Shown here: piece after piece, positions 28,561-50,820 of the stretch
Position numbering within the stretch: position 1 is the stretch's first letter
How the letters are laid out: each line of letters opens with the position of its first letter
Origin: an uncultured Chloroflexia bacterium
GTDB lineage: Bacteria; Chloroflexota; Limnocylindria; Limnocylindrales; CSP1-4
Direction: 5' to 3'
DNA: 64,000 nucleotides
Assembly (NCBI GenBank): GCA_963819655.1
Contig: CAWFXA010000002.1
Coordinates: forward strand, 768,001-832,000
The notes under the pieces: generated by a model
Databases searched by the model: none
What the model was told of the DNA's origin: nothing
What the model saw: the letters and a program-made list of their open reading frames with translations, nothing else
Made by a program: the position numbers and the translations under genes

Positions 28561-28579
28561 CGGAGGGGCGGGTCGTCTG

Positions 28580-34948: not shown

Positions 34949-35767
34949 ATGCGGCTGCCCGTCGCCCTCGTCCAGCTCGACGCGACCGGTGATGTCGAGG
35001 CGAACATCGATCGCGCCACCGCTCTCGCGGCCGAAGCCGCCGCGGGCGGCGCTCGCCTGGTCGTCCTGCCCGAGTACCTGCACTACCGGGGCGACGACCA
35101 TGGCTTCCGGGCGTCCGCACGACCGATTCCAGGGCCGTTCACCGAGGCATTCGCCGAGGTCGCGCGACGGCATGACGCGTGGATCCTCGCCGGCAGCGTC
35201 GCGGAGACCTCGGACGACGCCGCGTGTCCCTACAACACCAGTGTGCTGCTCGATCCGAGCGGCTCGATCGCGGCGACGTACCGCAAGATCCACCTCTTCG
35301 ACGTGTCCGTCGACGACGGCCCGGTCGATACCGAATCCGCCCGCGTCTCCCCCGGGGACACGCCGGTCGTTGCCGATGTCGACGGCGTGCGTGTCGGCCT
35401 GTCGGTGTGCTACGACCTCCGCTTCCCGGAGCTGTATCGCACGTTGGCGCTGGCTGGCGCTGAAGTGCTTGCGGTCCCCTCCAACTTCACAGAGCGAACG
35501 GGCCGCGATCATTGGGAGGTGCTACTCCGCGCGCGAGCGATCGAAAACGGCGCGTGGGTCCTGGCTCCTGGCCAGTCGGGCGGACCACCCGGGCAGCCGG
35601 CGTTCGGGCGGTCGATGGTCATCGATCCGTGGGGCACCGTCGTGGCCCAGGCGTCCGACGGCGTCGGCATCATCCGGGCGGACGTGGAGACGGACCGCGT
35701 CGCCGCGGTCCGTCGTCAGATCCCGTCTCTGGCCAACCGGCGACCCGAGGCCTACCGGCTGGCGTAG
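34949..35767 (+). CDS. Carbon-nitrogen hydrolase (Nit1-like)
   Basis: VLPE, YRKIHLFD, VCYDLRFPE, RARAIEN, DPWG. Confidence 0.95.
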   Translation: MRLPVALVQLDATGDVEANIDRATALAAEAAAGGARLVVLPEYLHYRGDDHGFRASARPIPGPFTEAFAEVARRHDAWILAGSVAETSDDAACPYNTSVLLDPSGSIAATYRKIHLFDVSVDDGPVDTESARVSPGDTPVVADVDGVRVGLSVCYDLRFPELYRTLALAGAEVLAVPSNFTERTGRDHWEVLLRARAIENGAWVLAPGQSGGPPGQPAFGRSMVIDPWGTVVAQASDGVGIIRADVETDRVAAVRRQIPSLANRRPEAYRLA

Positions 35768-35793
35768 GCGGCCCGCTGGGCCGCCGACGACCG

Positions 35794-36927
35794 CTACTTC
35801 ACGAGCTGGATGCCGATAGCACCGGCTCCCTGGATGGGTCCGCCGCTCACGGCGCCCGTGGTGATGTACCGGACGAACCAGCCGGCGATGCAGCTGCTGC
35901 TGCCGTTGCCGGCGATCGGGACGAGCGTGGTCCCGTTGCCCTGGCAGGCCAGGTTGTGGCCCCCGTTCTGATCCGACATGTAGTCGAGGAAGAATGCGGC
36001 GACCCGGATGATGTGGTACGTGGCGTGACTGCCGCCGGACGTCGTGCAGTCACCGTCGCAGATCGGGATGAACACGACCTTGCCGGAATAAGCATTGACC
36101 GCGTCGACCATCGGCTTGGCACAGTTGTTGCCGTTGTCCGAGTTGACGGTCACGGGGAAGCTCGCGAACTGGACCGCCGGCGGGTTGGTGACTTCGTCGT
36201 CGCAGTTGTTGGGATTCCCGTCGAGGTCGAGAACCATGAACGAGCCGCCACCGGTCTTGCACAGGGGCACGATGTATTCCTGGCCCTCGGGGTTGGAGTC
36301 GAGATCCGCGCCGTCAGGATTGCTGATCTGCCAATTGATCTCGCCGGTGCCTAGATCGCCGTTGACGTCGCAGTCGACGATGTTGACCGGGAAGACGACG
36401 GGCATGATCAGGCCACCTGAAAGGGCGCCAGCCACCGACGTCGCCTCGGCGGAGGCGGTGAACTGGTTCATTCCGAGCACTCGAGCGAACGTCGTATCGA
36501 AGTTCTGCGATCCCATGGCCTGGACGCCCTGGGCGTTGGGCGGGATCACGCCATCGCCGACCCGAGCGGCCGAGCCAAGCCCTCCGGAGGGAGTGCCGCC
36601 GTTGTTCAGCAGTTGCCCGGTCACATCGGTGTAATAGCCGAGGTACGAGCCGAGCGCATTCAGGCCAGACACCCTCGTCATCGCAGCGGCGACATTCGAA
36701 TCCGTTTTCGCTGTGCCGCCGAGATTCTCCGCCAGGACCGTGGCGCCGGCGTTCGCGATGGCGTCGGCGCCGTTCTGTGCCTGGCGCTGGTGGGCATACG
36801 CGTTGCCGGCCTCCAGGACCAGGGCGACTCCGCCGATCAGGGAGATCATCGCCATGGCAGCGATGACGATCACCTGGCCTCGTGGCCGCCGGGTGGAGAC
36901 GTGGCGAGTCATCGGTTTCCCTCTCAT
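35794..36927 (-). CDS. tadG: TadG-like pseudopilin, cassette A
   Basis: RG|QVIVIAA prepilin-type N-terminus, EAGNAY...AQNGADA.A.AGA Tad domain, Cys-rich C-domain. Confidence 0.8.
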   Translation of the reverse strand: MRGKPMTRHVSTRRPRGQVIVIAAMAMISLIGGVALVLEAGNAYAHQRQAQNGADAIANAGATVLAENLGGTAKTDSNVAAAMTRVSGLNALGSYLGYYTDVTGQLLNNGGTPSGGLGSAARVGDGVIPPNAQGVQAMGSQNFDTTFARVLGMNQFTASAEATSVAGALSGGLIMPVVFPVNIVDCDVNGDLGTGEINWQISNPDGADLDSNPEGQEYIVPLCKTGGGSFMVLDLDGNPNNCDDEVTNPPAVQFASFPVTVNSDNGNNCAKPMVDAVNAYSGKVVFIPICDGDCTTSGGSHATYHIIRVAAFFLDYMSDQNGGHNLACQGNGTTLVPIAGNGSSSCIAGWFVRYITTGAVSGGPIQGAGAIGIQLVK

Positions 36928-37436
36928 GGTTGCTTGGGGCAGTTGGCTGCGGCGGCGCCGTCGTTCCGGTTGGCCGGGCAGCTGAACTCCACGGACAGCG
37001 TGGAGGTGGCAGTGAAGGTCACGCCGTTCTTGAAGACGATGTTCCCGATGAGCGGCGTGATCGGTTGATAGGTGGCTTCGAAACTGACGGTGGCCATGCA
37101 GCCGACGGCGATCTGGCTCAACGCACAGGGGACCGCCGTGTTCGGTGTCCCGTCGGCGTTCACCTGGTAGAAGTCCACCTGGACGCTCGGATCGTTGAGC
37201 TCGACGATCGCGGTCTGCTGCTTCGCGCGCGCCACGATGCTCGGCTTGTACTGGTTCACGATCGCCATACGCGCCCCTTCGCGCGCTGCGTTCGTTAGCG
37301 TGTTGTAAGCGAAGACGGCTCGACCGAGGTCGAAGATCGCCACCAGCAGAAGGATGAAGATCGGCAGGACGAGCGCGAACTCGACGAGGGCCTGGCCACG
37401 CTTCGCTCCGCGGGGGCGTCGACGGAAGGTATTCAT
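36924..37436 (-). CDS. tadE: TadE-like pseudopilin, cassette A
   Basis: RG|QALVEFALVLP...DLGR...NAAREGAR...YQPITP; ATGA overlaps on both sides. Confidence 0.9.
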   Translation of the reverse strand: MNTFRRRPRGAKRGQALVEFALVLPIFILLLVAIFDLGRAVFAYNTLTNAAREGARMAIVNQYKPSIVARAKQQTAIVELNDPSVQVDFYQVNADGTPNTAVPCALSQIAVGCMATVSFEATYQPITPLIGNIVFKNGVTFTATSTLSVEFSCPANRNDGAAAANCPKQP

Positions 37437-38662
37437 GGATTGTTCACCGTCACGCTGCTGCTGCATGGAACCTGCGATGCCGCCGTGATCGACTGCGACA
37501 GGATCGTGAAGTTGCCGTTCGGGGCGCCTGGACCGTTGCTGACCGTGCCGGTGAAGCTCGCCGCGTTCCATACCGCCTGGGCGTTGTTGCGCTTCACGCC
37601 GTCGAGACTTGGGACCGTGCACAGGGCGGTGCCCAGCGAGATCGTCTTGGTGGCGCTCTCCGGCCCAGTCGGGTAGGTCACCGTCAGCGTCACGTCATAC
37701 GAGCCGGCCGAGCTATACCCGTGGCTCGTGGTGGTCCCGGTGCCAGTGCCTTCACCCGCCCCGAACGTCCAGTCGTAGCTCGTGCCACCGGGTGACGAGG
37801 CGTCGGTGAAGTCCACCGTCGCCGGCGCGTTCGGACCCGACATGGCGTAGGTGAAATCGACCGTCGTGGGCAACCCCACGTTCACGGTCATCGATTCGGT
37901 GGTGGATCCCCACGCGTTCGTCGCCCTCATCGTCACGACGTACGACCCCGGCAGGAGGAACTGGTGGTCCAGCGGGTCCTGCAGCGGCGATGTAGTGCCG
38001 TCGTCCGGGAACGTCCACAGCCATTCCGTCGGGCTGCCGCCCGACGTGTCCCGGAAGGTGACGGTAAACGGCGCGGTCCCACTGACTGAGTTCGGCGCGA
38101 GCGTCCCGTTGCCCGTGAAGGCGGCGTTCGGTGCGCTCCCCACTGGCCCACCACCGCCGGTCGACGTCATCCCGCTCTTGACCGGGAACACCGACGACGA
38201 CGCCACCGAGATCGAGCCACCAAGGACGTCCCGGATCCCCGGGGTGATTAGGTTGAACGTGCAGGACAGCGCGACCGATGCGGAGTCGCCGATGTCGTCG
38301 GCGGCGCCGTTGCCGCCGGTGTCACTGAATGTCGGATCCGGGGCAGTCGTCACCCCACTGACCGTCGGCAGCTGGCAGTTCGTCGCGGCCGCGTCGTTGC
38401 GGATCTGGTTCTGGTACTTGGCCTGGACGGCAACATCGCCGCCGCCCTGCCATGCCGTGGGGTTGTTCGCGGCGAGGTTGGCCGCGATCCGGCTCATGCT
38501 CTGGAGGTTGATCCAGCCGAGGTAGACCCGACCGAAATCGAGCGCCACGAGGGTCAGGTACAACAGGATCGGCAGGACGATCGCGAACTCGACGAGGCTC
38601 TGGCCTCGGCGGCGGCGGTGGCGGTCGTTCCTGAGCCCGTCGGTGGGTCGCATGAAGCGCAT
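37433..38662 (-). CDS. TadE-like pseudopilin fused to two PKD domains and a PASTA-like domain, cassette A
   Basis: RG|QSLVEFAIVLP; PKD motifs WLWTFPD / YDWTFG...H.Y...G.Y.VTL; C-terminal CTVPSLDG...AQAVW...LSQS. Confidence 0.85.
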   Translation of the reverse strand: MRFMRPTDGLRNDRHRRRRGQSLVEFAIVLPILLYLTLVALDFGRVYLGWINLQSMSRIAANLAANNPTAWQGGGDVAVQAKYQNQIRNDAAATNCQLPTVSGVTTAPDPTFSDTGGNGAADDIGDSASVALSCTFNLITPGIRDVLGGSISVASSSVFPVKSGMTSTGGGGPVGSAPNAAFTGNGTLAPNSVSGTAPFTVTFRDTSGGSPTEWLWTFPDDGTTSPLQDPLDHQFLLPGSYVVTMRATNAWGSTTESMTVNVGLPTTVDFTYAMSGPNAPATVDFTDASSPGGTSYDWTFGAGEGTGTGTTTSHGYSSAGSYDVTLTVTYPTGPESATKTISLGTALCTVPSLDGVKRNNAQAVWNAASFTGTVSNGPGAPNGNFTILSQSITAASQVPCSSSVTVNNP

Positions 38663-38701
38663 CAAGGGTTTCCTGCGTGCGGATTCGGAGAGGTGCGGCC
38701 G

Positions 38702-38735
38702 ATGCTCGGCGTAGCACCTTTCACGGTCCCTTGAA
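38702..38735 (-). promoter_or_regulatory. Degenerate 12-bp-period repeat (TCAAGGG-N5-GAAAGGT) plus GAGCAT
   Basis: Plus strand acctttca (38716) and cccttgaa (38728); same period and similar offset to a -10-like hexamer as the three perfect sites. Confidence 0.5.
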
Positions 38736-38831
38736 TCGGTGCGCGACTGCATAGCCCGAACGGCCTACTGCCCGGGCACGATGGTCAGGCGGTTCGCACG
38801 CTGCCGCGGCCAGGGATCGCCTCGGAATCGA

Positions 38832-38858
38832 GAGAGCCGCGCCCCCAGCGCGGCTCTC
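38832..38858 (-). terminator. Terminator hairpin separating cassettes B and A
   Basis: gagagccgcg / cgcggctctc 10-bp stem, 21 nt after the tadG-B stop. Confidence 0.65.
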
Positions 38859-38879
38859 CGAGGTGTTGTCGCTGCGTTC

Positions 38880-39881
38880 CTAGTCGATGAGCTTGATCAC
38901 ATAGGTGCCGTGGAAGAATCCGGCGCAAGCGGAGTCGGTGATGGCGCACACGTCATCGGCCGATGCGCTCCGGGTGATGCCCGTCAGGAAGTAGCCGGTG
39001 ATCGTCCCTTCCTCGCCGCCGCCGTTCTTCGCGGCGCTCACGACGTGGAACAGCGCCCATCCGCGGAAGCAGCCGACGTCGTGGGTCCCGTCGTTGCAAT
39101 GGGTCTGGCCGGGGATGGGAGGTCCGACGATGGGGACGGCGACGTTGAGTCCGGCGAGCGTCGTGTTGACGCTCGGCTGACTCGGTGAATTCGTATCGAA
39201 CAGCGCGTTGTGGACGCCGTTGTTGCTCTGGCCGATGTAGTCATTGAGCGCGAGGTCACCGTTGATCGGCGCCGTGCCATCCAGGGCGTCCGAGACGTCC
39301 CTGGTGGAGACGTTGCCCGTCCCAAGATTCGTCCAGGCCACGTTGAGCACCGTGAGCGGTGAGTCGCTGCCCTGACCATGGGTCTTCGTGAAGTCGGTCG
39401 GAGTCGTGTACGGCTCGAACGGAAGACCGGAGACCGGGTCGAAGATCTCCTGACTGAGGATGAACGGGGCGACCCCGGAGAACTTCGTCGGGATCCCGGT
39501 GAGCGCCGTCGCGGTGACACTGACCTGCCAGGTCGGCTGCCCGACCACGCCCGCGAAGTAGTTCGAGTGGGGCGCGCTTATGTCGACCTTGACTGTCTTC
39601 GGCGTGGTGCTCACGTTGACCGTGACACCACCGGTCCCATGGGTGTACTCGTTGGCCGCCGCCGCAGCCTGGGCAGCGGCAGTCGGGTTCTGGCCATTGA
39701 GCAGCGCGTTCGCTCCGGCGAAGGCCGCGAGGTCGGCCGCATTCTGCTCGCTTCGGCGTTGGGCGAACGCAAACCCCCCGTCGATCACCAGGCCCACGCC
39801 CGCGATGATCGCCACCAAGGCGACCACGAAGATGACGAGGATCTGGCCGCGCTGGTCAGATCGGCTATTGGATCTGCGCAC
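38880..39881 (-). CDS. tadG: TadG-like pseudopilin, cassette B
   Basis: RG|QILVIFVV, IDGG...EQNAADLAAFAGA; Cys-rich C-domain ending YVIKLID. Confidence 0.8.
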   Translation of the reverse strand: MRRSNSRSDQRGQILVIFVVALVAIIAGVGLVIDGGFAFAQRRSEQNAADLAAFAGANALLNGQNPTAAAQAAAAANEYTHGTGGVTVNVSTTPKTVKVDISAPHSNYFAGVVGQPTWQVSVTATALTGIPTKFSGVAPFILSQEIFDPVSGLPFEPYTTPTDFTKTHGQGSDSPLTVLNVAWTNLGTGNVSTRDVSDALDGTAPINGDLALNDYIGQSNNGVHNALFDTNSPSQPSVNTTLAGLNVAVPIVGPPIPGQTHCNDGTHDVGCFRGWALFHVVSAAKNGGGEEGTITGYFLTGITRSASADDVCAITDSACAGFFHGTYVIKLID

Positions 39882-40308
39882 TGCTACTTCCCTCCATGGT
39901 CCACGTGCCGGTCAGCCCAAGCAACGGCGTGACGGGTTGGTACGGTGCCGTGATCTCCACTTGGACCGAGTGCTTGCTGAAATCACACGGATTAGGCGCG
40001 ACGGGTGCCCCGCTTTCGTCGACGCAGCTGATGGTCGGGTTGGCGAGGCCGGGAATCAGGCCTCTCTGCGTCGCGAGGACGTTCTGTGTCTCGGTACTGC
40101 CGCCTGGTGTACAGGTCAGTGCATCCGGGACGGCGCAGGGATGGACACTCGTTACCCGCGCGAGCTCGCGCGCGGCCTGGGAGACCCCGTTGAACTTGTA
40201 GATCGCCATGCCGAAGTCGACGACGCCCATCAGGATCACCAGGAAGACGATGATGGTCAGCGCGAATTCGACGACGGCCTGACCGGCGAACGATCGAGTC
40301 CTGCTCAT
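39865..40308 (-). CDS. tadE: TadE-like pseudopilin, cassette B
   Basis: AG|QAVVEFAL...DFG...QAARELAR...YQPVTP. Confidence 0.88.
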   Translation of the reverse strand: MSRTRSFAGQAVVEFALTIIVFLVILMGVVDFGMAIYKFNGVSQAARELARVTSVHPCAVPDALTCTPGGSTETQNVLATQRGLIPGLANPTISCVDESGAPVAPNPCDFSKHSVQVEITAPYQPVTPLLGLTGTWTMEGSSSAQIQ

Positions 40309-41309
40309 GGCGATGTCACGGTCTGCGTCGCCGTCACCGTGCACGTGCCGGCGTTGTTCGTCGCCGTGACGGTGACCGAGTGCGGGCCGGTCGAGGGGAA
40401 GTTCACGGTCGGGCTCTTGCCGGTCGCGGTGATCGCGCCCGTCCAGGCGAATGCCCACGGCCCACCCGACGATGGTGTGAGGGTCGCATCGAGGTCCATC
40501 CGGTGCGGGAACGACCTGTTCGACTTGTCGGTCGCGGTGAAGGCGATCGTCGGACAGACCGGCGGAGGTCCGGTGCCCGTGACCGTGATCACCGCGGTAT
40601 CGGTGTCGGTCTGGCCGCGGCTGTCAGTGATGGTGAGGACGACGGTGTGCGAACCCACGGAGAACGAGTGATTGATCGTCATCCCCGATCCACCGAAGCT
40701 CCAGAGGTATGACGTGATCGTCGCTCCGGGCGAACTCGACCCTGAGGCGTTGAAGGAAACGTCGAGTGGCTCCGGCCCACTCATCGGGCTAGCCGTGAAC
40801 GCGGCGATGGGGTCGGGAACGGACGGGAACGTGACCTGTGGGACGACCAGACACTGCGCCTCAGCCGTCGCGTGGAGCACCACGTTCGAGCCGACGATCG
40901 AACCGATGATCGGCGTCACCATCCGGAATGGCGCCGACACCTCGACCGAGACGTTCGGCGGCCCCCCTGGCGGATACATCGCGTCCTTCACGCAGGTCGC
41001 TGGCGTCAGGGTGACGCGTGCCTGCTCGACCTCGACGAAGCCTCCCTGGGCCTCGGTCAGAGCGCCGCACATCACGGTGTTGGTGTCGCTGCAGGGCTGG
41101 TTGCTCTGGTACGTGCCGCCCTGGGATGCGACGAGCGCCCCCTCCTTCGCCGCGTTCGTGATCGTGATCTGCGAGTACAGCAAGCGGCCCAGGTCCAGGG
41201 CGGTGAGCAGCAGGAGAAGGAAGACCGGCGCGACGAGCGCGAGCTCGACGAGGCTTTGGCCTCGCGAGCGAGCGGACCGACCGCGACGTGACGGACGGAT
41301 GATGAGCAT
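40305..41309 (-). CDS. TadE-like pseudopilin fused to PKD domains, cassette B
   Basis: RG|QSLVELALVAP, NAAKEGA; PKD P.A.F...YLWSFG...H.V.LT.TD, then a second PKD-like domain. Confidence 0.85.
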   Translation of the reverse strand: MLIIRPSRRGRSARSRGQSLVELALVAPVFLLLLLTALDLGRLLYSQITITNAAKEGALVASQGGTYQSNQPCSDTNTVMCGALTEAQGGFVEVEQARVTLTPATCVKDAMYPPGGPPNVSVEVSAPFRMVTPIIGSIVGSNVVLHATAEAQCLVVPQVTFPSVPDPIAAFTASPMSGPEPLDVSFNASGSSSPGATITSYLWSFGGSGMTINHSFSVGSHTVVLTITDSRGQTDTDTAVITVTGTGPPPVCPTIAFTATDKSNRSFPHRMDLDATLTPSSGGPWAFAWTGAITATGKSPTVNFPSTGPHSVTVTATNNAGTCTVTATQTVTSP

Positions 41310-41343
41310 GAGTCCCCCGACAGGCTGGTACGAAAGTCCCGGA

Positions 41344-41376
41344 ATGGTCGCACCGGCACCTTGCACGTCACCTTGC
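41344..41376 (-). promoter_or_regulatory. GCAAGGT-N5-GCAAGGT direct repeat plus -10-like GACCAT
   Basis: Plus strand accttgc at 41358 and 41370. Confidence 0.7.
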
Positions 41377-41478
41377 TAGCGGTGCCGTTGGGCGACACCG
41401 GGAGCCCCGATGGGGTACCTCGACGGGGGACCAGTGGGTCAGTTGTCGGGCGGTCGCGCGCGGCGCACGATCGGCCCC

Positions 41479-41691
41479 ATGAAGAAGCGAATCCTCGCCG
41501 CATTCCTCTGGTTCTACGCCGGTTGGTACGGCGGCGCGCTCCTGGCCGATTTCATCGGCGTCAGCCCGCTGCTCGGCCCGATCGTCGGGGCCGCAGTGGC
41601 AGCGTTGATCGTCGGCGACCCGCGTCGGATCATCTGGACCGCCCGAACCGCCAGCCCGGCCGCGTCCGAGGCCACGCCAGAACCTGCCTGA
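41479..41691 (+). CDS. Small 2-TM protein (70 aa) between cassettes
   Basis: MKKRILAAFLWFYAGWYGG...GPIVGAAVAALIVGDPRRIIW; CACGAT 7 nt before ATG. Confidence 0.75.
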   Translation: MKKRILAAFLWFYAGWYGGALLADFIGVSPLLGPIVGAAVAALIVGDPRRIIWTARTASPAASEATPEPA

Positions 41692-41726
41692 CACCGAGCC
41701 GCGCCCGGCGCGGCCGATCGACGCGA

Positions 41727-41760
41727 TGAGCGCCGGGTGCCTGTCGTCACCCGGCGCTCA
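41727..41760. terminator. Bidirectional terminator hairpin
   Basis: 13-bp stem tgagcgccgggtg / cacccggcgctca between convergent genes. Confidence 0.7.
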
Positions 41761-41796
41761 CCGATCCCCCTTCGGGAAATTCGATCGACGCTGGAG

Positions 41797-42861
41797 TTAG
41801 CGCACCAGCTGCACGGCCAGCGAGGCGAACTCACCCGGTGAGCTGCCGGTGGTCGGACCAAGGAAGAACTGCTTCCGCCACACGCCCGAGATGTTCTTGC
41901 CGCCCTCGCACTCGGTCAGCTGGAAGCCGGCGAACCCGATGATGTGGTACCAGCCGTTGGCGCCGGTGCCCCCGGCGTAGTCCCAGATCGGGATGGTGAC
42001 CACGATCTCGTTGTCGATGTAGTAGGAGCAATCGGCGCTGGCCTTGTTGCCGGGCAGGCTGCCGATGCGATCCAGATCCGGATCGCCGGACACCGCGGTG
42101 CAGCAGCCGAAGCTGTTCGACGGCGGGCCGATCTCCTCCTGGAGGAAGGGCTTGTTCTCCTCGCAGCCCGACGAGGTCGACATCCCCAACCCGAATCCTG
42201 CGCACTTGTTCTGCGCGCCGAACTTCAGCCAGCCGAAGCCGCCGGGCACGTTCAGGTTGCCCGGGGTGAGGTTCTGCGGCTGGCACTCCGGGCTCGACCC
42301 GACATCGCCCGTGCAGAACGGGTACGTCTCGAAGAAGGCGAGCGAGATCCCGGCCGGAAACACGTTCCCCATCGGTGGCGCCGCGGCGTATCCGCCCCGC
42401 GCGGTGGCGACCGAGCTGGCCGTCCAGTCGCCGCTGCCGATGATCCCGAGCAGGTACGGATGGAAGGTCCTGCTCGATCCGACGGTGACGCCTTCCGTCC
42501 CGGTCGGGATCGTGCCGCTGCCGACCCACCCGGTGAATGCCCCGGCGCGGCTGACATAGCGCGGGCCGTTCGGCGATCCGTAGGTGACCGGCGTGCCGCC
42601 GTTTGCCGCGATCGTCGCGTCGATCGACGAGACGACGTTCGCGTCGGTGCCGTTGACGGCATCGTTATCGATCCACGTGGCGATGATCCGGGCGCCCGCG
42701 AGGGCGGCGAAGTCGGATGCATTCTGCGACGCGCGACGCTGGAGCAGTGCGTTGCCGCCATCGATGACGAGTGCGACGGCCAGGATGATGACGACCATGC
42801 TGAGCGCGAACAGTGCAAGGATCTGGCCTCGCGGACGCACCTCAGCCTGCTGACTGGGCAT
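41797..42861 (-). CDS. tadG: TadG-like pseudopilin, cassette C
   Basis: RG|QILALFAL, IDGGN...SQNASDFAALAGA; Cys-rich C-domain with GFAGF, ending LAVQLVR. Confidence 0.8.
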   Translation of the reverse strand: MPSQQAEVRPRGQILALFALSMVVIILAVALVIDGGNALLQRRASQNASDFAALAGARIIATWIDNDAVNGTDANVVSSIDATIAANGGTPVTYGSPNGPRYVSRAGAFTGWVGSGTIPTGTEGVTVGSSRTFHPYLLGIIGSGDWTASSVATARGGYAAAPPMGNVFPAGISLAFFETYPFCTGDVGSSPECQPQNLTPGNLNVPGGFGWLKFGAQNKCAGFGLGMSTSSGCEENKPFLQEEIGPPSNSFGCCTAVSGDPDLDRIGSLPGNKASADCSYYIDNEIVVTIPIWDYAGGTGANGWYHIIGFAGFQLTECEGGKNISGVWRKQFFLGPTTGSSPGEFASLAVQLVR

Positions 42862-42871
42862 CGGGTCCCCT

Positions 42872-43408
42872 CTAGTTGATGACCATGGATGTCGACGCCG
42901 ACATCGACACGATGCCGACGATCTGGGAGATGACCGGTGTGATCGGTCGGAACGTCCCAGCGACGCGGACCGATGCGACGTTGCCGCTCCCGTTGCTGGT
43001 GCACGAGGTGCCCGTCCAACCGCCGGTCGGCGTGCCACCGGACGGGTCGCATCGCACGAACACGTCGGTCGCGGGGACGACAGCGAACGGCGCGATCATC
43101 CGGTTGGCGGCAGTCACGATGTCGGTCTTCATGGAGGCGCTCGACGCCGGACACGTCGGCCCATTCGCCGAACCGCAACCGGCGTCCGCCGAACCGATCC
43201 AGCTCGCCTCCACCGATGCCAGTCGGGCGCCTTCGCGGGCGGCCTGGGACAGGACGCTGTGCTGGTAGACCAGGCGGCCGCCGTCGATCAGGCCGAACAG
43301 GAACAGGATGAAGATCGGCAGGACGAGGGCGAACTCGACAAGGCTTTGGCCGCCTGATAGCCGCCGGTCGCGGGCGGTCCGCCGCACACTCGCTCGCAGC
43401 CGCCTCAC
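42872..43408 (-). CDS. tadE: TadE-like pseudopilin, cassette C
   Basis: GG|QSLVEFALVLP...QAAREGAR...FRPITP; GTGA overlap. Confidence 0.88.
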   Translation of the reverse strand: MRRLRASVRRTARDRRLSGGQSLVEFALVLPIFILFLFGLIDGGRLVYQHSVLSQAAREGARLASVEASWIGSADAGCGSANGPTCPASSASMKTDIVTAANRMIAPFAVVPATDVFVRCDPSGGTPTGGWTGTSCTSNGSGNVASVRVAGTFRPITPVISQIVGIVSMSASTSMVIN

Positions 43409-44556
43409 GGTGACACCGACCGCGTGACGCTGTGGGAGCCGCTCGCGCTGGTCACGGACAGCGTCACGTTCCACGTCCCGTTATTGCTCGGGAAGCTATG
43501 GAACGGATTGGGCGCGTTGCTCGACGGGGAGCCGTCGCCGAAATCCCACAGCCACGCCGTGATCGGGCAGCCGGCCGGCGCCGACGAGAGGTCTGAGAAC
43601 GTGATGTTTCGCCGCGGATTGCCCGACAGCCAGCTGAAGTTCGCGACCGGGTTGGCGCACGGCGCCGGTGTGGGTGTCGGGGTCGGTGCCGCGGTCGGGG
43701 TCGGTGTCGGGCCGCTGGTCGGCGTGGGGGTCGGCCCCCCGGTCGGGGTCGGTGTCGGCGCCGCAGGCGGGACGGTCACGGTGCGGATCGCCGTGAGAGT
43801 GCCACCCTGGTTCGTGACCTCGAGCGTGACGACATAGGTGCCGGGCGACGCGTACGTGTGGGTCACCGGGATGCTCGATCCCACGTCGGTCTCCCCGTCC
43901 CCGAAGTCCCAGTTGTAGCCCGAGATCGTGCAGACCCCGGTGTCAGGCTTCGACCCGTCGGGGTTGGCGATGATCTGAAGTCCGGTGGCGACGATCGAGA
44001 ACGTCGCATTCGACGGCCCTGCGCAGGAGCTCGGGCCTCCGCCCGTCCCGCCGGCCGCGGACACGAACACGGCCGTCGTGACATTCGCCGACATCCGGAG
44101 GCTGCCGCCGAACATGTCGTTGATCAGAGGGGTAAGGAAGGTGAACGGCTGGCGGACCGTGACAGTCAGGGTGTTGCCGGCGCCAGCGCCTCCCGGTGCC
44201 GCTGCACAGGCGATCGTCGTTCCTGCCTGATTCGCACAGCTGGTGATGATCGGGTCGAGCGGGCCTTCGCCCTGCGACTGCGCGTTCTTCTCCTGGACCG
44301 CCCGGGCTTGCATGCCCACGCTATCGGTGGGCTGTGTGGCGCCGTAGGCGGCGGCCTCACGAGCGGCGTTGCTGACCTGGATGTACGTGAAGAACAGGCG
44401 ACCGAAGTCGACTGCCATCAGCAGCAGAGCGAGGAAGATCGGGAGGACCAGCGCGAACTCGACCACGGATTGACCGCGGCGGCGTCTGGCCGGGCGGCTC
44501 GCACCATGCGGCGCACGCGCACGCACAGGCTTCCGCCATCGGAAGCGATCCCACAT
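43405..44556 (-). CDS. TadE-like pseudopilin fused to two PKD domains with a Pro/Thr linker, cassette C
   Basis: RG|QSVVEFALVLP, NAAREAA; YNWDFGDG and WLWDFGDG; (PT)n linker at about 43670-43760. Confidence 0.88.
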   Translation of the reverse strand: MWDRFRWRKPVRARAPHGASRPARRRRGQSVVEFALVLPIFLALLLMAVDFGRLFFTYIQVSNAAREAAAYGATQPTDSVGMQARAVQEKNAQSQGEGPLDPIITSCANQAGTTIACAAAPGGAGAGNTLTVTVRQPFTFLTPLINDMFGGSLRMSANVTTAVFVSAAGGTGGGPSSCAGPSNATFSIVATGLQIIANPDGSKPDTGVCTISGYNWDFGDGETDVGSSIPVTHTYASPGTYVVTLEVTNQGGTLTAIRTVTVPPAAPTPTPTGGPTPTPTSGPTPTPTAAPTPTPTPAPCANPVANFSWLSGNPRRNITFSDLSSAPAGCPITAWLWDFGDGSPSSNAPNPFHSFPSNNGTWNVTLSVTSASGSHSVTRSVSP

Positions 44557-44724: not shown

Positions 44725-46185
44725 TCAGGCCTCGTCGCCGGATTCGCCCGGCAAAGCGATCGAGAAGGCCGCACCCCGACCCGGTTCGGAGGGCTCGAGC
44801 GTGAGCTCGCCACCCATGGCGCGACACAGCTCGCGCGAGACGTACAGACCGAGGCCACTGCCGCCGTCCGGAGCGGGATCGCCGCCCCTCTCGAACCGCG
44901 TGAACAGGCGGCCGCGGTCGGCATCGGCGACCCCGGGTCCGCGGTCGCTGATGGTCAGTCGCACGCGGCGGGCGTCGGCGTCGACCGCGATGGCGGCACG
45001 GACCGGGGTGCTGCCACCGTACTTCACGGCATTGTCGAGCAGGGCCCACAGCACCTGGTCGAGCTGATCCGGGTCGGCGATCGCGAGCCAGCCAGCGGCT
45101 CGGTCGTCGAGCTCGAACTCGACGTCGTCGACGCCCAATGCTTCCCATGCCTTGCGGACCCTCGTCGCGAGCGAGACGACCTCGCTGCGTGGCTTGAGCG
45201 CCCCCGACTCGAGACGCGTCACGGTGAGCAGCTGGCGGACCATCCGCGACAGCCGTTCGGACTGTTCCGCGATGATCCCGAGCCGCCGATCCGGCGATGC
45301 CGCGTCGAGCTGTTCGGCATACGCGCGAATGCTCGTGAGCGGTGTCTGCAGGTTGTGGCTGACGCCGCGCAGGAAGTCGTCCTTGGCCGCATCGAGCTCG
45401 AGCAGCTGGCGGTTCTGGGACTCGACCTGGGCGAACAGCTGAGCATTCCGGATGGCCGATGCCATCTCGCTCGCGAACAGCTCGAGGAGGTCCTGGTCGG
45501 CGGGCTCCCAGCGGCGCGTCGCCGGCAGCCGGCCGATGAGGATCCCGATGTCCTGGCCGCCGGCGCGCATGACCGCGCGAAGCGGCCGCGACACTCCCGG
45601 CACGACCTCCTCTTCCTCGACGATCGACGGGTCGCCCATGACGACGGTCGCATCGATGAGTGCGAAGGCCGACGTGGCGTCGGCCCCGGTCCGCTGGACG
45701 AGCGCCTCGACGTCGTCATGGAGCGATACCTCGTCGATCGCCGCCAGGATCCGGCCGAGCTCGCGGTTTCGGCGCTCGAGGTCCGCGGCGAGGCGATTGT
45801 GGCTGTCGGCCAGCCTCGCCAGCTCGTCATCGCCCACGACCTGCATCGGGCTCTGGAGATCGCCCTTGGACACCCGGTCGACCGCGGCGACGACCGAGCG
45901 CAGGGGCGCGAGCAGCTCTGTCGCCAAGGCGAACGCCGCAACGATCGCGAAGGCCAGCAGGATCGCGAGCGCGAACAGGAGGACCTGGGCGAACGTGGCG
46001 TCGACGGACTGGTCGCCCAGGATCGATTCGAAGGCGAGGACGACGACGCCGAAGACCGCGAGCGGGACGATCGCCGCAAAGAGGAGCGCCGCGGTCAGCC
46101 GCGAGCGGAAGCTCATGCGCGGCGGGCGATCGGCCGGCGCGGGAGGCGCGTCGCTGGATGGCCGGACCAGTCGGTCGTCAGCCAC
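44725..46185 (-). CDS. Sensor histidine kinase (2 TM, HAMP, GAF-like, HisKA, HATPase)
   Basis: VSHNLQTPL, LLDNAVKY, DRGPG, LFTRFER, GSGLGL; two TMs joined by a ~15-aa loop. Start is GTG 46185 or ATG 46116. Confidence 0.93.
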   Translation of the reverse strand: MADDRLVRPSSDAPPAPADRPPRMSFRSRLTAALLFAAIVPLAVFGVVVLAFESILGDQSVDATFAQVLLFALAILLAFAIVAAFALATELLAPLRSVVAAVDRVSKGDLQSPMQVVGDDELARLADSHNRLAADLERRNRELGRILAAIDEVSLHDDVEALVQRTGADATSAFALIDATVVMGDPSIVEEEEVVPGVSRPLRAVMRAGGQDIGILIGRLPATRRWEPADQDLLELFASEMASAIRNAQLFAQVESQNRQLLELDAAKDDFLRGVSHNLQTPLTSIRAYAEQLDAASPDRRLGIIAEQSERLSRMVRQLLTVTRLESGALKPRSEVVSLATRVRKAWEALGVDDVEFELDDRAAGWLAIADPDQLDQVLWALLDNAVKYGGSTPVRAAIAVDADARRVRLTISDRGPGVADADRGRLFTRFERGGDPAPDGGSGLGLYVSRELCRAMGGELTLEPSEPGRGAAFSIALPGESGDEA

Positions 46186-46900
46186 CGGAGCGCTTCTGCG
46201 GCGCGGCCGAGACCAGCCGGTACCCGACGCCCCTGACCGTTTGGACATGGGCCGGACGGTTCGGGTCGACCTCGACCTTCTGGCGGAGGCGACGCATGGT
46301 CACCCAGACGTATGACGGATCGGCGTCCTCGGTCTCGGCCCATCCACGTGCCAGGAGCGTCTCGGTCGTGACCGTCTGACCGAGGTTGGCGGCGAGGGCG
46401 TACAGAAGGCGCGATTCGGTCGGGGTCAGCTGGACCACCTGGCCACCGACCGTGGCTTCGCGGCGATGCAGATCGAGCGTCAACGACGGCCCGAGCTTCA
46501 GGCTCTGGCGAGGAACCTTGTCGCCCAGCCGGCGGAGGACCCGGTTGATGCGCGCCCGCAGCTCGGGGTAGTGGTACGGCTTGGTGACGTAATCCTCGGC
46601 GACCTCCTCGAGCAGGTCGGCCTTGGAATCGCCTGCATCGATCGCCGAGAGGACGATGATCGGCAGGTCCGCCTGTGCCTTGATCTCGCGCGCGAGGGTC
46701 AGGCCGTCCATCCGCGCCATCATCATGTCGATGATCAGGAGGTCGGGCCAGGCCGATCGCAGACGGCGGAGTGCCTCGTCGCCGTCCCGCGCGGTCGAGA
46801 TCTCGAAGCCGTCGGCGCGCAGCTGATCGGCGAGCAGGACCAACAAGTTCGGATCGTCGTCGACCAGCAGGATCCGAGGGGCGTGCGGACCTGACAGCAT
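46178..46900 (-). CDS. OmpR/PhoB-family response regulator
   Basis: ILLVDDD, IIDMMM, DYVTKPY, LTPTE, MRRLRQKVE, TVRGVGY; TATACT 7 nt before ATG. Confidence 0.95.
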   Translation of the reverse strand: MLSGPHAPRILLVDDDPNLLVLLADQLRADGFEISTARDGDEALRRLRSAWPDLLIIDMMMARMDGLTLAREIKAQADLPIIVLSAIDAGDSKADLLEEVAEDYVTKPYHYPELRARINRVLRRLGDKVPRQSLKLGPSLTLDLHRREATVGGQVVQLTPTESRLLYALAANLGQTVTTETLLARGWAETEDADPSYVWVTMRRLRQKVEVDPNRPAHVQTVRGVGYRLVSAAPQKRSGG

Positions 46901-47229
46901 GTCCGCGAGTATAGGGACGGCGTTCGCGACGACCTCGTAGTACCGGCGGCGAGTCGTCTCGGCGTCCGGTTGGTGCGGTCGGACACCTGTTTCTGCGGCC
47001 AGGTGTGGTCCGGGGCAGAGCAGACGTCCGAATGGGGGATGACTTCCGGCGGACGGGTCAGTACGGTTGGCGCCCGCTCGTTCCGGAGCGGCCAACTGAA
47101 TAGTCACTCGTCCCGTGTCGGGGTGAGGCGACCTCGGGCCCAGGACGCAGCTCTCATCCGTTCGTTCTTCCTTCGGACCCTGCGAACCCGAGACGCCACC
47201 CGTCACGCCAGGCGCCTTGGGGGACCTTG

Positions 47230-50200: not shown

Positions 50201-50820
50201 CGAACAAAGTGTGGGACGGCACGACGGCAGCATCAGTCGTGACGACCACGGTCGTCGGGGCTCTCGTTGGCGACGACGTCGAATTGACTGGTGGTACCGC
50301 CACCTTCGCAAGCAGCACGGTCGGGACGTGGACCGTCACCCTGACCGGTGCCGGCCTGATGGGGTCTGACGCCGGCAACTACAACCTGACATCGGTCGAG
50401 ACGACGACCGCAACGATCACGACGGCCTTCCGCATCATCGGGTTCGATAGTCCGGTCGACATGACTGTCGTCGGCAATCCGCGTATCTACAACTCGGTCA
50501 AGAACGGCCAGACGGTTCCTCTGAAGTTCCGCGTGTTCAATCTGAACGGGACCGAGGTGACGAGCACGACCGGCCTCAGCGCATGGGCTCGCAACGTGGG
50601 CTGTGCGAGCGGCATCGTGGAACCGGACCTCATCCCGGTCGCCTCGACCGCTGACACCGGACTGCGGCGGACGGGCGATCGGTTCCACTTCAACTGGGCC
50701 GTGCCCAAGGGCGCCCTCAAGTGCTATCAAGTCCTGATCCAGACCGTCGACGGCTCGACCACGATGGTTGGTAGCCTGAGCGGGACACCCGTCCAGGAGG
50801 CGTGGTTCAAGTCCAAGTAG
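47230..50820 (+). CDS. Large secreted multi-Ig-like repeat protein (Pro/Thr stalk; Big_3-, MBG-, YDG-like and C-terminal PxKF domains)
   Basis: Signal peptide ..PVAA|; EPT/PDPT stalk; LSSSGSPSVFG..VTFTATV; TKVFADDDP.F...GFVNGE; NKVWDGTT; TVPLKF. Confidence 0.85.
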   Translation: MSRVSSRLSFVGHRSLVAIQTFLLIATLFAPIPVAAEDPTDDPGASAPPTTEPAATPDPTPDPTAEPTAEPTPDPTPEPPAATPDPTPEPTAEPPTAEPPTAEPPTAEPPAATPDPTTEPSTSVGTPTIQSDLADYPPGGLVTLTGSGWQPGESVHIFVNDDWGSSWSRNVDVIADASGAIVDQFNLPNWFVAVYSVTATGSISGAATTSFTDARVVTTATLNGGTTVTVNTGGSISAVVNVTTDGSGANARWRSTSWSIATTDPAGTSAGTCVNHGNHDLAGSYSESFSITAPPTAGTYNAYFKAHADDGCGIANGPSALFKLTDGVIARWPTTTMLSSSGSPSVFGTLVTFTATVTATGGNPSGVGTVNFSAGSGPLCTAVALSGNTATCSTSTLTVTGSPHTITAQYNGTTTGSPQFAPSALATLSGGQTITKASSTTTVTCPAGPYTYTGLAQTPCTATVTGAGGLSLSPTPDYTANTNAGTATASYTYGGDDNHTGSDDSDSFTIDKATLAVDADDQTKVFADDDPTFSWTYSGFVNGETADDVTISGAADCSRDPGETVLGGPYAITCAPGDLLADNYTFVTGEPGALTITKASSTTTVTCPAGPYTYTGLAQTPCTATVTGAGGLSLSPTPDYTANTNAGTATASYTYGGDDNHTGSDDSDSFTIDKADAVCTVTGYDVVYDAAAHTATGSCVGVEDETLAGLDLSTTTHTNAGTYADDPWSFIDLTGNYNDTSGTVADQIDKAPSSTVVTCLAGPFVYSGSAHTPCSAAVTGAGGLSETLTVSYTDNVDAGTATASAGYAGDDNHEASSDSETFTIDKAPSSTVVTCLAGPFVYSGSAHTPCSAAVTGAGGLSETLTVSYTDNVDAGTATASAGYAGDDNHEASSDSETFTIDKAPSSTVVTFEAGPYIYRGTSFAATALATGVGGLSIAVAVDYSGDCTNVTIAGGCTASATFAGDLNHYGSGDSKSITILRKNVTGAFTAANKVWDGTTAASVVTTTVVGALVGDDVELTGGTATFASSTVGTWTVTLTGAGLMGSDAGNYNLTSVETTTATITTAFRIIGFDSPVDMTVVGNPRIYNSVKNGQTVPLKFRVFNLNGTEVTSTTGLSAWARNVGCASGIVEPDLIPVASTADTGLRRTGDRFHFNWAVPKGALKCYQVLIQTVDGSTTMVGSLSGTPVQEAWFKSK
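47506..47560 (+). repeat. 15-bp tandem repeat (gagccgccgaccgcc; EPPTA x3+)
   Basis: Directly visible. Confidence 0.85.
48525..49253 (+). repeat. Identical 243-bp direct repeat (48525-48767 and 49011-49253)
   Basis: Identical DNA by eye and identical 81-aa translations, offset 486 bp. Confidence 0.9.
49470..49961 (+). repeat. Identical 228-bp tandem repeat (about 2.2 copies)
   Basis: gatcgacaaggcgccctcgtccacggtcgtgacct at 49470, 49698 and 49926; identical 76-aa units. Confidence 0.9.

What the first reader, a model, noticed from the sequence alone, without database searches (positions are those of the whole stretch)
35794..44556. Three tandem, sequence-divergent Tad pseudopilin cassettes (TadE-PKD / TadE / TadG) with no pilus machinery in view
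Seen: nine genes form the same three-gene unit three times (A 35794-38662, B 38880-41309, C 41797-44556). Genes within a unit overlap or nearly abut, and cassettes B and C each end in a hairpin. All nine keep the G|Q prepilin-type N-terminus, but the extracellular parts differ: PKD-PKD-PASTA, PKD-PKD-like, or PKD-(PT)n-PKD, plus three different Cys-rich TadG domains sharing a terminal x-L-[VI]-x strand (IQLVK, IKLID, VQLVR). No flp, tadA/B/C, cpaB or prepilin peptidase is in the window. Established: TadE/F/G minor pilins are normally encoded once, inside the tad locus. Inference: this is a library of alternative pilus-tip complexes, each pairing a long PKD adhesin pilin with its own TadG, served by one Tad machine encoded elsewhere.
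Basis: partly seen in the sequence, partly recalled or inferred. Interest (0 to 1): 0.85.

Follow-up and report, generated by a model that had tools for sequence, protein, structure and literature searches.

The report
Three tandem Tad pilus-tip gene sets
An uncultured soil Chloroflexota bacterium carries three different side-by-side sets of minor-pilin genes that probably give its single adhesive Tad pilus a choice of tips, as was recently shown for a predatory Myxococcus.

Summary
Nine minus-strand genes form three units of TadE-PKD, short TadE and TadG-like, only 27-37% identical between units. The genome, named Limnocylindrales on relatives' records, has one complete tad locus about 250 kb away on the same contig, with 3 flp, rcpC, tadZ, tadA, tadB and tadC. 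It also has one short A24 prepilin peptidase, no other T2SSF platform and no secretin found. Two further minor-pilin sets lie elsewhere.

In relatives the same island, between a CN-hydrolase gene and an OmpR-type two-component system, holds 0-4 such cassettes. Three cassette families (A, B, C) are recovered in all three gene trees. Three or more TadG-like matches occur in 72 of 121 sampled genomes of the class, against 16 of 135 other Chloroflexota.

Best reading (about 0.6): alternative heterotrimeric priming/tip complexes for one Flp pilus. This matches the four KilLMN 'Tips' of the Myxococcus Kil pilus (PMC12075869), so the idea is published. New here are the phylum, the tandem variable island, the PKD-bearing TadE pilins and the adjacent regulator. 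Assembly, tip location and alternation are inferred, not shown.

The parts
37433..38662 (-). A1: modular TadE-like minor pilin. Leader ends in G|QSLVEF; then a pilin module, two PKD domains and a small C-terminal alpha/beta (PASTA-like?) module.
   Evidence: Pfam TadE 40.1 bits and PKD 76.2 bits with 2 stretches. AF2 mean pLDDT 79.9, with the PKD and C-terminal parts above 90. Foldseek top hits are PKD/Ig arrays. PASTA only E 0.024.
36924..37436 (-). A2: short TadE-like minor pilin (170 aa), G|QALVEF, 4 Cys.
   Evidence: Pfam TadE 70.2 bits. N-terminus and Cys count. The 120 best related clusters are 73-96% identical.
35794..36927 (-). A3: TadG-like minor pilin (377 aa), G|QVIVIA without Glu5, with a Cys-rich C-terminal domain of unassigned fold.
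   Evidence: PF13400 21.7 bits and 26.4 bits. AF2 pLDDT 81: helix 17-69 plus sheet 94-169 is pilin-like. No clear PDB match. Four invariant Cys plus one near-invariant.
40305..41309 (-). B1: TadE-like pilin with two PKD domains.
   Evidence: Pfam TadE 53.5 bits and PKD_4 57.2 bits. The second PKD_4 scores 27.5 bits when scanned alone.
39865..40308 (-). B2: short TadE-like pilin (147 aa).
   Evidence: Pfam TadE 49.7 bits. G|QAVVEF.
38880..39881 (-). B3: TadG-like pilin (333 aa), 4 Cys, ending in IKLID.
   Evidence: PF13400 35.9 bits. No Pfam hit on the C-terminal 173 aa.
43405..44556 (-). C1: TadE-like pilin with PKD, a (PT)n linker and a second PKD.
   Evidence: Pfam TadE 59.3 bits and PKD_4 98.1 bits with 2 stretches. 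PT-rich linker at residues 266-297.
42872..43408 (-). C2: short TadE-like pilin. The start is probably the GTG at 43408, which overlaps the C1 stop by 4 nt; the open frame reaches 43474.
   Evidence: Pfam TadE 67.6 bits. Candidate starts.
41797..42861 (-). C3: TadG-like pilin (354 aa from the ATG at 42861), 8 Cys, ending in VQLVR.
   Evidence: PF13400 39.5 bits. No Pfam hit on the C-terminal 177 aa.
38828..38861 (-). GC-rich hairpin just after the B3 stop; a likely end of the cassette B transcript.
   Evidence: Fold -31.6 kcal/mol, z -2.64. No T tract, and not called by the consensus scan.
41726..41762 (-). GC-rich hairpin after the C3 stop.
   Evidence: Fold -41.3 kcal/mol, z -3.62, 0 of 200 shuffles as stable.
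35761..35792 (-). Hairpin after the A3 stop, between A3 and the convergent CN-hydrolase gene.
   Evidence: Fold -29.2 kcal/mol, z -1.86. Weak.
41479..41691 (+). Small membrane protein of unknown function (70 aa from MKKRIL) on the opposite strand. It is a conserved landmark of the island.
   Evidence: tblastn hits in 9 of 16 related loci, always beside the cassettes. No Pfam family.
44725..46248 (-). Sensor histidine kinase (HAMP, HisKA, HATPase_c). Its stop lies 168 nt upstream of C1, on the same strand.
   Evidence: Pfam. Found beside pilin cassettes in 9 of 16 related loci.
46178..47206 (-). OmpR-type response regulator (receiver plus Trans_reg_C). The start is probably the ATG at 46900.
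   Evidence: Pfam. Start position. Synteny.

Best explanation
The nine genes encode three self-contained sets of Tad (type IVc) minor pilins. Each set has three proteins: a modular TadE-like pilin carrying a PKD-domain stalk, a short TadE-like pilin, and a TadG-like pilin with a disulfide-rich distal domain.

Proposed mechanism:
1. The six TadE-like prepilins are cut after Gly of the G|Q(S/A)(L/V)VE motif by the genome's single short A24 (TadV-type) peptidase.
2. Within a set, the three N-terminal helices bundle into a heterotrimer.
3. That heterotrimer primes polymerisation of Flp pilin on the only TadA/TadB/TadC machine, encoded about 250 kb away, and stays at the pilus tip.
4. At the tip, the PKD stalk and the TadG distal domain set what the pilus sticks to.

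The three sets, plus two more elsewhere in the genome, are alternative tips. Choice among them is probably transcriptional. Each cassette ends in its own hairpin, and an OmpR-type two-component system sits directly upstream of cassette C. No invertible or recombining DNA elements were found.

What is shown: gene content, domain make-up, signal motifs, one machine in the genome, co-inheritance of each triplet, and variable cassette content between species. What is inferred: processing, trimer formation, tip location, alternation and regulation.
For: - TadE, PKD and Tad domains occur in a repeated three-gene order.
- Class III-type G|Q..E5 leaders in the six TadE-like proteins match the genome's Flp leaders, G|QGLAEY.
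- All nine proteins have an even number of Cys, which fits extracytoplasmic disulfides.
- The A3 model has a long N-terminal helix plus a beta-sheet at pLDDT above 90, a pilin-like module, followed by an extra domain.
- The A1 model has a pilin module, a flexible linker and two confident PKD domains.
- The genome has one complete tad locus (3 flp-like, rcpC, tadZ with a receiver domain, tadA, tadB, tadC), only two T2SSF genes, both in that locus, and one 213-aa A24-only peptidase.
- Relatives carry the same island with 0-4 cassettes. All three genes share the same best-hit label in 18 of 19 cassettes.
- The A (6 cassettes), B (4) and core-C (3) groups are recovered in all three gene trees built from 15 cassettes.
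- The cassette-A proteins are conserved: 66-95%, 60-88% and 73-96% identity in the 120 best clusters of each search. They are therefore under purifying selection.
- The two-component system lies beside pilin cassettes in 9 of 16 related loci.
- Published precedent: four paralogous TadE/F/G-like kilLMN clusters give interchangeable heterotrimeric Tips on the single Myxococcus Kil pilus. There the TadG-like KilN is the backbone and distal domain, and many disulfides are predicted (PMC12075869: abstract, sections 8 and 16, and passages read).
Against: - No direct evidence of a pilus, of processing, of a trimer or of differential expression.
- The three TadG-like proteins lack Glu5, so their cleavage and incorporation are less certain.
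- The rcpC gene of the core locus reads in three frames. This may be assembly error in a 3-contig MAG, or a broken machine.
- The genome is 91% complete, so a second machine cannot be fully excluded.
- A second, orphan TadA-like ATPase exists.
- Five flp-like genes alongside five minor-pilin sets would also fit dedicated pilin-tip pairs rather than interchangeable tips.
- Co-inheritance of linked genes is expected from linkage alone and does not prove cognate binding.
- The hairpins lack T tracts, and the consensus terminator scan shows no enrichment.
Confidence: 0.6

Rival explanations
1. The sets are dedicated rather than interchangeable. Each minor-pilin set works with its own Flp-type major or minor pilin, so the cell makes several distinct filament types on one machine, possibly at the same time.
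For: Five flp-like genes were found, three in tandem in the core locus plus two orphans, and five TadG-containing sets. In Myxococcus one tip cluster carries its own Flp-like gene, kilO (PMC12075869, passage of section 13).
Against: No flp-like gene lies inside or beside the three window cassettes. All flp hits are below Pfam's cut-off, and the two orphans are weak (23.0 and 17.6 bits). The equal counts may be coincidence.
Confidence: 0.2
2. These are pseudopilins that never leave the envelope. The proteins stay membrane-anchored or form only a short stub, as T2SS pseudopili do. They would display PKD adhesins on the surface of a cell without an outer membrane, or aid assembly, rather than cap a long pilus.
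For: From my own recall (no call or paper read here), Aggregatibacter TadE and TadF are called pseudopilins and TadG a membrane protein. The TadG-like proteins here lack Glu5. No secretin was found in the genome, so a short stub could already reach the surface.
Against: The Myxococcus work places TadEFG homologues at the tip, by genetics and models (PMC12075869). The A1 architecture of pilin module, flexible linker and PKD array is that of a modular pilin (PMC8179133, passages read).
Confidence: 0.12
3. The sets are redundant or decaying tandem duplicates with no separate roles.
For: Tandem paralogues with the same architecture.
Against: All nine frames are intact with GC3 of 0.84-0.87. The paralogues are only 27-37% identical, yet each has well-conserved relatives. 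The A, B and C families predate the divergence of the species compared. The distal domains differ in length and Cys pattern.
Confidence: 0.03

Closest known systems
KilL/KilM/KilN 'Tip' clusters of the Myxococcus xanthus Kil (Tad-like) pilus (Herrou et al. 2025, PMC12075869)
   Same: Both have several paralogous three-gene clusters of TadE/TadF/TadG homologues in one genome, mostly away from the machine genes, serving one Tad-type pilus. In both, one short pilin is joined by two with extra regions, the TadG-like member has a variable distal domain without a PDB match, and cysteines are many.
   Different: Here three sets are tandem in one island whose content changes between species. The extra module on the TadE-like pilin is a recognisable PKD array. 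The organism is a Chloroflexota genome in which no secretin was found. A two-component system is adjacent. No link to predation or to a T3SS-like partner is known. Orthology to KilLMN was not tested, and the paper reports tip1-4 as restricted to Myxococcota.
TadE, TadF and TadG of canonical tad loci (Aggregatibacter, Pseudomonas, Caulobacter CpaJ/K-type)
   Same: The same Pfam families (PF07811, PF13400). The same G|xxxxE leader in the TadE-like members. The same dependence on a TadV-type peptidase and a TadA/B/C machine is expected.
   Different: Canonical loci carry one set inside the tad operon (from PMC12075869 passages and my own recall). Here five sets lie outside it, and the TadE-like gene 1 is fused to PKD domains.
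Modular type IV pilins such as Streptococcus sanguinis PilB (vWA) and PilC (lectin) (Raynaud et al. 2021, PMC8179133)
   Same: A pilin module is linked by a short flexible linker to an adhesive module for display by the filament, in an organism that probably lacks an outer membrane.
   Different: That survey was built on the IPR012902 N-terminal motif and does not mention TadE (0 occurrences). The proteins here are TadE-class (type IVc) pilins with PKD modules.
Three minor-pilin/PilY1 clusters of the Myxococcus type IVa pilus, one controlled by the HsfBA phosphorelay (PMC7541494, cited within PMC12075869; PMC9109919, seen only as a search listing and the start of its abstract)
   Same: Alternative tip-complex gene clusters for one pilus, with a phosphorelay choosing between them.
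   Different: A different pilus class (IVa), four minor pilins plus the non-pilin PilY1, and clusters that are not tandem.

Membership tests
TadE/TadF-type pseudopilin (Pfam PF07811) | Match to PF07811 above the curated cut-off | tested here: met
   6 of 6 gene-1 and gene-2 proteins score 40.1-70.2 bits against 22.9.
TadE/TadF-type pseudopilin (Pfam PF07811) | Prepilin-peptidase site: Gly at -1, a hydrophobic helix, Glu at +5 | tested here: met
   All six read G|Q(S/A)(L/V)VE(F/L)A, the same register as the genome's Flp leader G|QGLAEY.
TadE/TadF-type pseudopilin (Pfam PF07811) | Cleavage by TadV and requirement for pilus biogenesis | not testable with these tools
   Needs biochemistry or genetics. 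One A24-only peptidase of 213 aa is present in the genome.
TadE/TadF-type pseudopilin (Pfam PF07811) | Encoded within the tad operon | tested here: not met
   The core tad locus is at G000:C2:548-554 kb and the cassettes are at about 804-813 kb on the same contig. This is a habit of the family, not a strict requirement.
TadG-like minor pilin (Pfam PF13400) | Match to PF13400 above the cut-off at the N-terminus | tested here: met
   B3 scores 35.9 and C3 39.5 bits against 22.3. A3 scores 21.7 in hmmscan but 26.4, over the cut-off, in the genome scan.
TadG-like minor pilin (Pfam PF13400) | Pilin-like fold (long N-terminal helix packed on a beta-sheet) followed by an extra C-terminal domain | tested here: met
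   A3 model: helix 17-69 and strands 94-169 at pLDDT above 90, with the C-terminal domain at about 65-86. Only A3 was modelled.
TadG-like minor pilin (Pfam PF13400) | Glu5 or a canonical class III leader | tested here: not met
   G|Q(V/I)(I/L)... with Ile or Leu at +5 in all three. Whether the family requires Glu5 is not established.
Myxococcus Kil 'Tip' system (KilLMN) | Several paralogous TadE/F/G-like three-gene clusters in one genome with a single Tad-type machine | tested here: met
   Five sets. One TadB/TadC pair and one complete tad locus.
Myxococcus Kil 'Tip' system (KilLMN) | Sequence orthology to KilL, KilM and KilN | not tested
   No Kil sequences were fetched. The paper reports tip1-4 HMM hits restricted to Myxococcota (PMC12075869, section 16).
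Myxococcus Kil 'Tip' system (KilLMN) | Role in contact-dependent killing with a T3SS-like partner | not tested
   Nothing here bears on predation. I do not file the locus as a member of this family, only as working like it.
Modular type IV pilin (sensu Raynaud 2021) | N-terminal pilin module fused through a linker to a domain not specific to pilus biology | tested here: met
   TadE plus 2 PKD in A1, B1 and C1. In the A1 model the linker 162-174 has low pLDDT and the PKD domains are above 90. Foldseek matches PKD/Ig arrays.
PASTA domain (PF03793) at the A1 C-terminus | Match above the curated cut-off | tested here: not met
   E 0.024, 15 bits against 23.2, although 59 of 64 model positions align. 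No PASTA chain appears in the PDB sequence search. The fold could not be searched separately.

The most novel reading that the evidence does not exclude
Limnocylindria, a widespread class of uncultured soil Chloroflexota, use a regulated, species-variable repertoire of interchangeable Tad pilus tips to recognise other cells rather than inert surfaces. The PKD stalks act as spacers. Distal modules, including a PASTA-like end on A1 that would bind peptidoglycan fragments, act as target-specific heads. Each tip is paired with one of the five Flp-like pilins. That would make the 'adaptable tip' principle of predatory Myxococcus a general cell-cell interaction device in bacteria that lack a secretin and probably an outer membrane, and it would hint at an epibiotic or predatory lifestyle for this class.
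Probability: 0.1. Interest if true: 0.8.

Novelty: new variant of a known kind. Interest (0 to 1): 0.5.

Why it matters
The 2025 Myxococcus study proposed that Tad pili are customised by exchangeable minor-pilin tips, but found multi-tip repertoires mostly in predators.

This locus suggests the same design is common in an abundant, uncultured soil class. Three or more TadG-like matches occur in 72 of 121 sampled genomes of the class. The sets form tandem arrays that differ between species, and their TadE pilins carry recognisable adhesion modules.

It yields concrete testable parts: nine proteins, a candidate regulator pair, and three cassette families with many natural variants. It also flags that current annotation calls the long pilins 'PKD repeat protein' or 'cell surface protein', which hides their pilin nature.

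The finding is not a new principle.

Tried and rejected
1. Complex prediction of mature A3 + A2 + the pilin module of A1, each given as an alignment. The tool's verdict was 'no answer'. I draw nothing from it, for or against binding. Cognate-versus-swapped comparisons could not be run because the cap is one job.

2. Fold of the TadG distal domain.
- Foldseek against the PDB gave 0 matches at E <= 0.001.
- VIA-align wide gave a best Z of 7.3, on the N-terminal module only. A type IV pilin, PilJ, scored Z 4.7.
- A profile search of PDB sequences found nothing relevant.
- The distal domain was barely tested on its own, so 'no known fold' is not claimed.

3. PASTA at the end of A1. It is sub-threshold in Pfam, absent from a PDB sequence search, and swamped by PKD/Ig matches in Foldseek.

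4. Expression. One RNA-library run (X1, rhizosphere metatranscriptome, kept as contigs) holds 200-490-nt contigs of about 92-98% identity. They cover parts of A3, C3, C2, the 5' end of C1, the kinase gene and a gene outside the cassettes. Contigs cannot show strand, level or absence of DNA carry-over. This shows only that close relatives occur in that library, not that the genes are transcribed.

5. Switching elements. No long inverted or direct repeats flank the cassettes. Only the shared TadE N-terminal coding segment (6 copies, 61-70%) and the PT repeat were found. A shufflon or invertible-promoter model is therefore not supported.

6. Consensus promoter and terminator scan: 0 promoters, and 4 terminator-like sites against 3.8 expected. 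Uninformative for this high-GC genome.

7. Earlier notes of this scan: none on pili in this genome.

8. Literature. No paper holds both 'Limnocylindria' and 'pili'. Searches on Chloroflexota / Tad pili / TadE and on modular pilins / PKD listed no description of tandem TadE-PKD/TadE/TadG cassettes. Only titles and abstract starts of those listings were seen. Supplements of PMC12075869 (its genome survey tables) were not opened and could list such loci.

Full report
**What is there**

The window is G000:C2:768001-832000, part of a 3.49-Mb genome in 3 contigs that is 91% complete. Between 35794 and 44556 lie nine co-directional minus-strand genes with GC3 of 0.84-0.87. They form the same three-gene order three times.

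- Gene 1 is a long TadE-like protein with two PKD domains: A1 37433-38662, B1 40305-41309, C1 43405-44556.
- Gene 2 is a short TadE-like protein: A2 36924-37436, B2 39865-40308, C2 42872-43408.
- Gene 3 is a TadG-like protein: A3 35794-36927, B3 38880-39881, C3 41797-42861.

Pfam places all six gene-1 and gene-2 proteins in PF07811, at 40-70 bits against a cut-off of 22.9. PKD/PKD_4 is found in A1, B1 and C1. B3 and C3 fall in PF13400. A3 scores 21.7 bits against 22.3 there, but 26.4 bits in the six-frame genome scan.

Genes within a unit overlap by 4 nt (A1/A2, A2/A3, B1/B2, and C1/C2 if C2 starts at 43408), overlap by 17 nt (B2/B3), or lie 10 nt apart (C2/C3). The units are separated by 217 and 487 nt.

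Each unit is followed by a GC-rich hairpin. The values are -31.6 kcal/mol (z -2.6) after B3, -41.3 (z -3.6) after C3, and a weaker -29.2 (z -1.9) after A3. None has a T tract, and the consensus scan is uninformative.

Between units the proteins are only 27-37% identical over their alignable parts. A3 and B3 align only over the first 45 residues.

**Signals and folds**

The six TadE-like proteins read G|Q(S/A)(L/V)VE(F/L)A, with Glu at +5. This is the same register as the genome's Flp pilins, G|QGLAEYAL. The three TadG-like proteins read G|Q(V/I)(I/L)... without Glu5. All nine have an even number of cysteines: 4, 6, 6; 4, 4, 4; and 8, 4, 8.

A3 was modelled with AlphaFold2 from 45 aligned relatives (mean pLDDT 81, pTM 0.75). 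The model has a 53-residue N-terminal helix packed on a beta-sheet at pLDDT above 90, which is a pilin-like module. A C-terminal domain follows at pLDDT of about 65-86. Four cysteines are invariant and one nearly so. No solved structure matches convincingly.

The A1 model (mean pLDDT 79.9) has a pilin module, a low-confidence linker at 162-174, two PKD domains above pLDDT 90, and a small confident alpha/beta end module. Foldseek returns PKD/Ig arrays, such as SorCS2 and an archaeal S-layer PKD.

The end module is PASTA-like only at E 0.024, 15 bits against 23.2.

**The machine**

The tad components found in the genome all lie outside the window. On the same contig, at about 548-554 kb, lies one complete tad locus. 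It holds three tandem flp-like genes, rcpC, a tadZ with an N-terminal receiver domain, tadA, tadB, tadC and a DUF192 gene.

- These are the only two T2SSF genes in the genome.
- There are two T2SSE ATPases. The second is an orphan fused to an L-PSP domain.
- There is one prepilin peptidase, 213 aa with the A24 domain only, as expected for the TadV type.
- No secretin was found. At 91% completeness this fits a cell without an outer membrane but does not prove it.

The window cassettes are not the whole repertoire. A TadE/TadE/TadG set lies at C3:177121-179696. A TadE/TadG(647 aa)/CpaB-like set lies at C3:786104-789561. The genome therefore has five TadG-like genes and five flp-like genes.

**Relatives**

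Names on homologues place the genome in Chloroflexota, 'Candidatus Limnocylindrales'.

TadE is found in 23 of 24 other genomes of the genus. It was found in 0 of 16 genomes of the small-genome sister family.

I fetched 16 loci from 13 genus members and compared them by tblastn. The island is bounded on one side by a CN-hydrolase gene (window 34949-35767). On the other side lie a small membrane-protein gene (41479-41691, + strand) and an OmpR-type response regulator with its histidine kinase (44725-47206).

| Genome | Cassettes in the island |
|---|---|
| G021 | the same A, B, C at 70-92% identity |
| G007 | B-like, A-like, C |
| G016 | four sets: one of another type, a B-like and two C-like in opposite orientations |
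| G011 | A plus an A-like copy, no C |
| G005 | two B-like |
| G012 | two islands with two sets each |
| G001 | C-like plus A-like |
| G020 | none between the flanks; other set types beyond the regulator |

In 18 of 19 A/B/C-type cassettes in these relatives, all three genes have the same best-hit label. The exception is one cassette in L025.

I built trees from the first 125 mature residues of 15 cassettes for which all three N-termini could be extracted. Cassettes with a frameshifted or missing gene were left out: L018 x1-x3, L019 y3, L023 u1, both L025 cassettes and L030 t2. All three gene trees recover the same A group (6 cassettes), B group (4) and core C group (3). Only a short sequence (L030_t1) and a long-branch outlier (L019_y0) move.

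The triplets are therefore old units that are duplicated, lost and inverted as wholes. Linkage alone would also give this pattern, so it permits cognate co-evolution but does not prove it.

Cassette-A proteins are well conserved in metagenomes. The 120 best clusters listed are 66-95% identical for A3, 60-88% for A1 and 73-96% for A2. A3 belongs to a large family, with 1754 representatives at E <= 0.001 and 74 at E <= 1e-30.

**Distribution beyond the genus**

Across the class, 115 of 121 sampled genomes have a TadG-like match at E <= 1e-5. The median is 3 per genome, and 72 of 121 have three or more. These tallies include four genomes flagged as unpublished (G102, G122, G131, G135). Without them the figures are 111 of 117 and 71 of 117. 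No sequence from those four was used.

Among 135 sampled Chloroflexota outside the class, 16 have three or more matches (my count from the table). Matches are not exact copy numbers, and related genomes are not independent.

Tandem arrays also occur in other families and genera of the class: three sets in L034 (G069), four in L035 (G133) and two or three in L033 (G110). PKD was found in 3 of 5 long TadE-like proteins scanned there.

**Interpretation**

The closest published system is the Myxococcus xanthus Kil pilus. It has four paralogous kilLMN clusters, homologues of TadE/F/G, which give interchangeable heterotrimeric 'Tips'. The TadG-like KilN is the backbone and the variable distal domain, with many predicted disulfides and no PDB match. 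Any one Tip suffices for pilus formation, and deleting all four abolishes it (PMC12075869; I read the abstract, sections 8 and 16, and search passages).

The authors found their tip1-4 families restricted to Myxococcota. They proposed that single TadEFG sets form tips elsewhere.

The long PKD pilins also fit the 'modular pilin' idea of Raynaud et al. (PMC8179133, passages read). That survey used a different N-terminal signature and does not mention TadE.

I therefore read the locus as three alternative priming/tip complexes for the one Flp pilus, with confidence of about 0.6. Choice among them is probably by transcription. Each cassette is a separate unit, the two-component system lies directly upstream of cassette C and beside cassettes in 9 of 16 related loci, and no repeats suggest DNA switching. 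A phosphorelay choosing between tip clusters is known for the Myxococcus type IVa pilus (PMC9109919; seen only as a search listing and the start of its abstract).

Rival readings:
- Dedicated pilin-tip pairs, given five flp-like genes and five sets (0.2).
- Envelope-retained pseudopilins that display PKD adhesins (0.12).
- Decaying duplicates (0.03). Conservation argues against this.

**Novelty**

The principle is published. The new points are the phylum, the tandem species-variable island, the PKD-bearing TadE pilins, the adjacent regulator, and the finding that multi-set repertoires are the majority condition in a whole uncultured soil class.

My searches listed no description of this. I saw only listings and abstract starts for most hits, and I did not open the supplements of PMC12075869.

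Current annotations call A1-type proteins 'PKD repeat protein' or 'cell surface protein'.

I rate this a new variant of a known kind, with interest 0.5.

Noticed in passing
L012:11928-13037 (G000:C2:552927-554036): The rcpC/cpaB gene of the core tad locus reads in three different frames, with a break near a poly-Gly/poly-Pro stretch. This is either indel errors in a 3-contig (probably long-read) assembly or a real frameshift in an essential pilus gene.
   Followed up: partly
L013:9252-11177 (G000:C3:617251-619176): A second, orphan TadA/CpaF-like ATPase (641 aa) is fused at its C-terminus to an L-PSP/RidA endoribonuclease-type domain. No T2SSF platform gene lies nearby.
   Followed up: partly
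window 47227-50820 (+): A 1197-aa surface protein with Big_3_5, MBG_2 and YDG domains is transcribed divergently from the response regulator. Homologues lie next to the same two-component system in L017, L018 and L019, so it may belong to the same regulon.
   Followed up: partly
window 41479-41691 (+): A 70-aa hydrophobic membrane protein of no known family sits between cassettes B and C on the opposite strand. It is conserved at the island edge in 9 of 16 related loci.
   Followed up: partly
G000:C2:554040, 554380, 554717, 239840, 189465: There are five flp-like pilin genes (three tandem, two orphan; all below Pfam's cut-off) and five TadG-containing minor-pilin sets in the genome. The numbers are equal, which may or may not be meaningful.
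   Followed up: no
L012:10536-11804: The TadZ/CpaE-like ATPase of the core locus carries an N-terminal response-regulator receiver domain. A LuxR-type regulator and HisKA_3 kinases lie just upstream of the flp genes.
   Followed up: no
L020, L021, L026, L029, L031 (relatives G020, G024, G017, G015, G003): Relatives carry other cassette types: TadE/TadE plus a 700-800-aa TadG with a 'SWYW.N' helix, and TadE plus a 500-770-aa TadG. These occur in tandem pairs and sometimes next to the same two-component system. They resemble the window genome's two sets on contig 3.
   Followed up: partly
window 25651-29662 (+): A MoxR AAA ATPase, a DUF58 protein and two BatA-type vWA membrane proteins form a Bat-like aerotolerance/vWA cluster. 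It seems unrelated to the pilin cassettes.
   Followed up: no
window 18251-19513 (-): A GGDEF diguanylate cyclase lies about 16 kb from the cassettes. c-di-GMP control of adhesion is common, but no link was examined.
   Followed up: no
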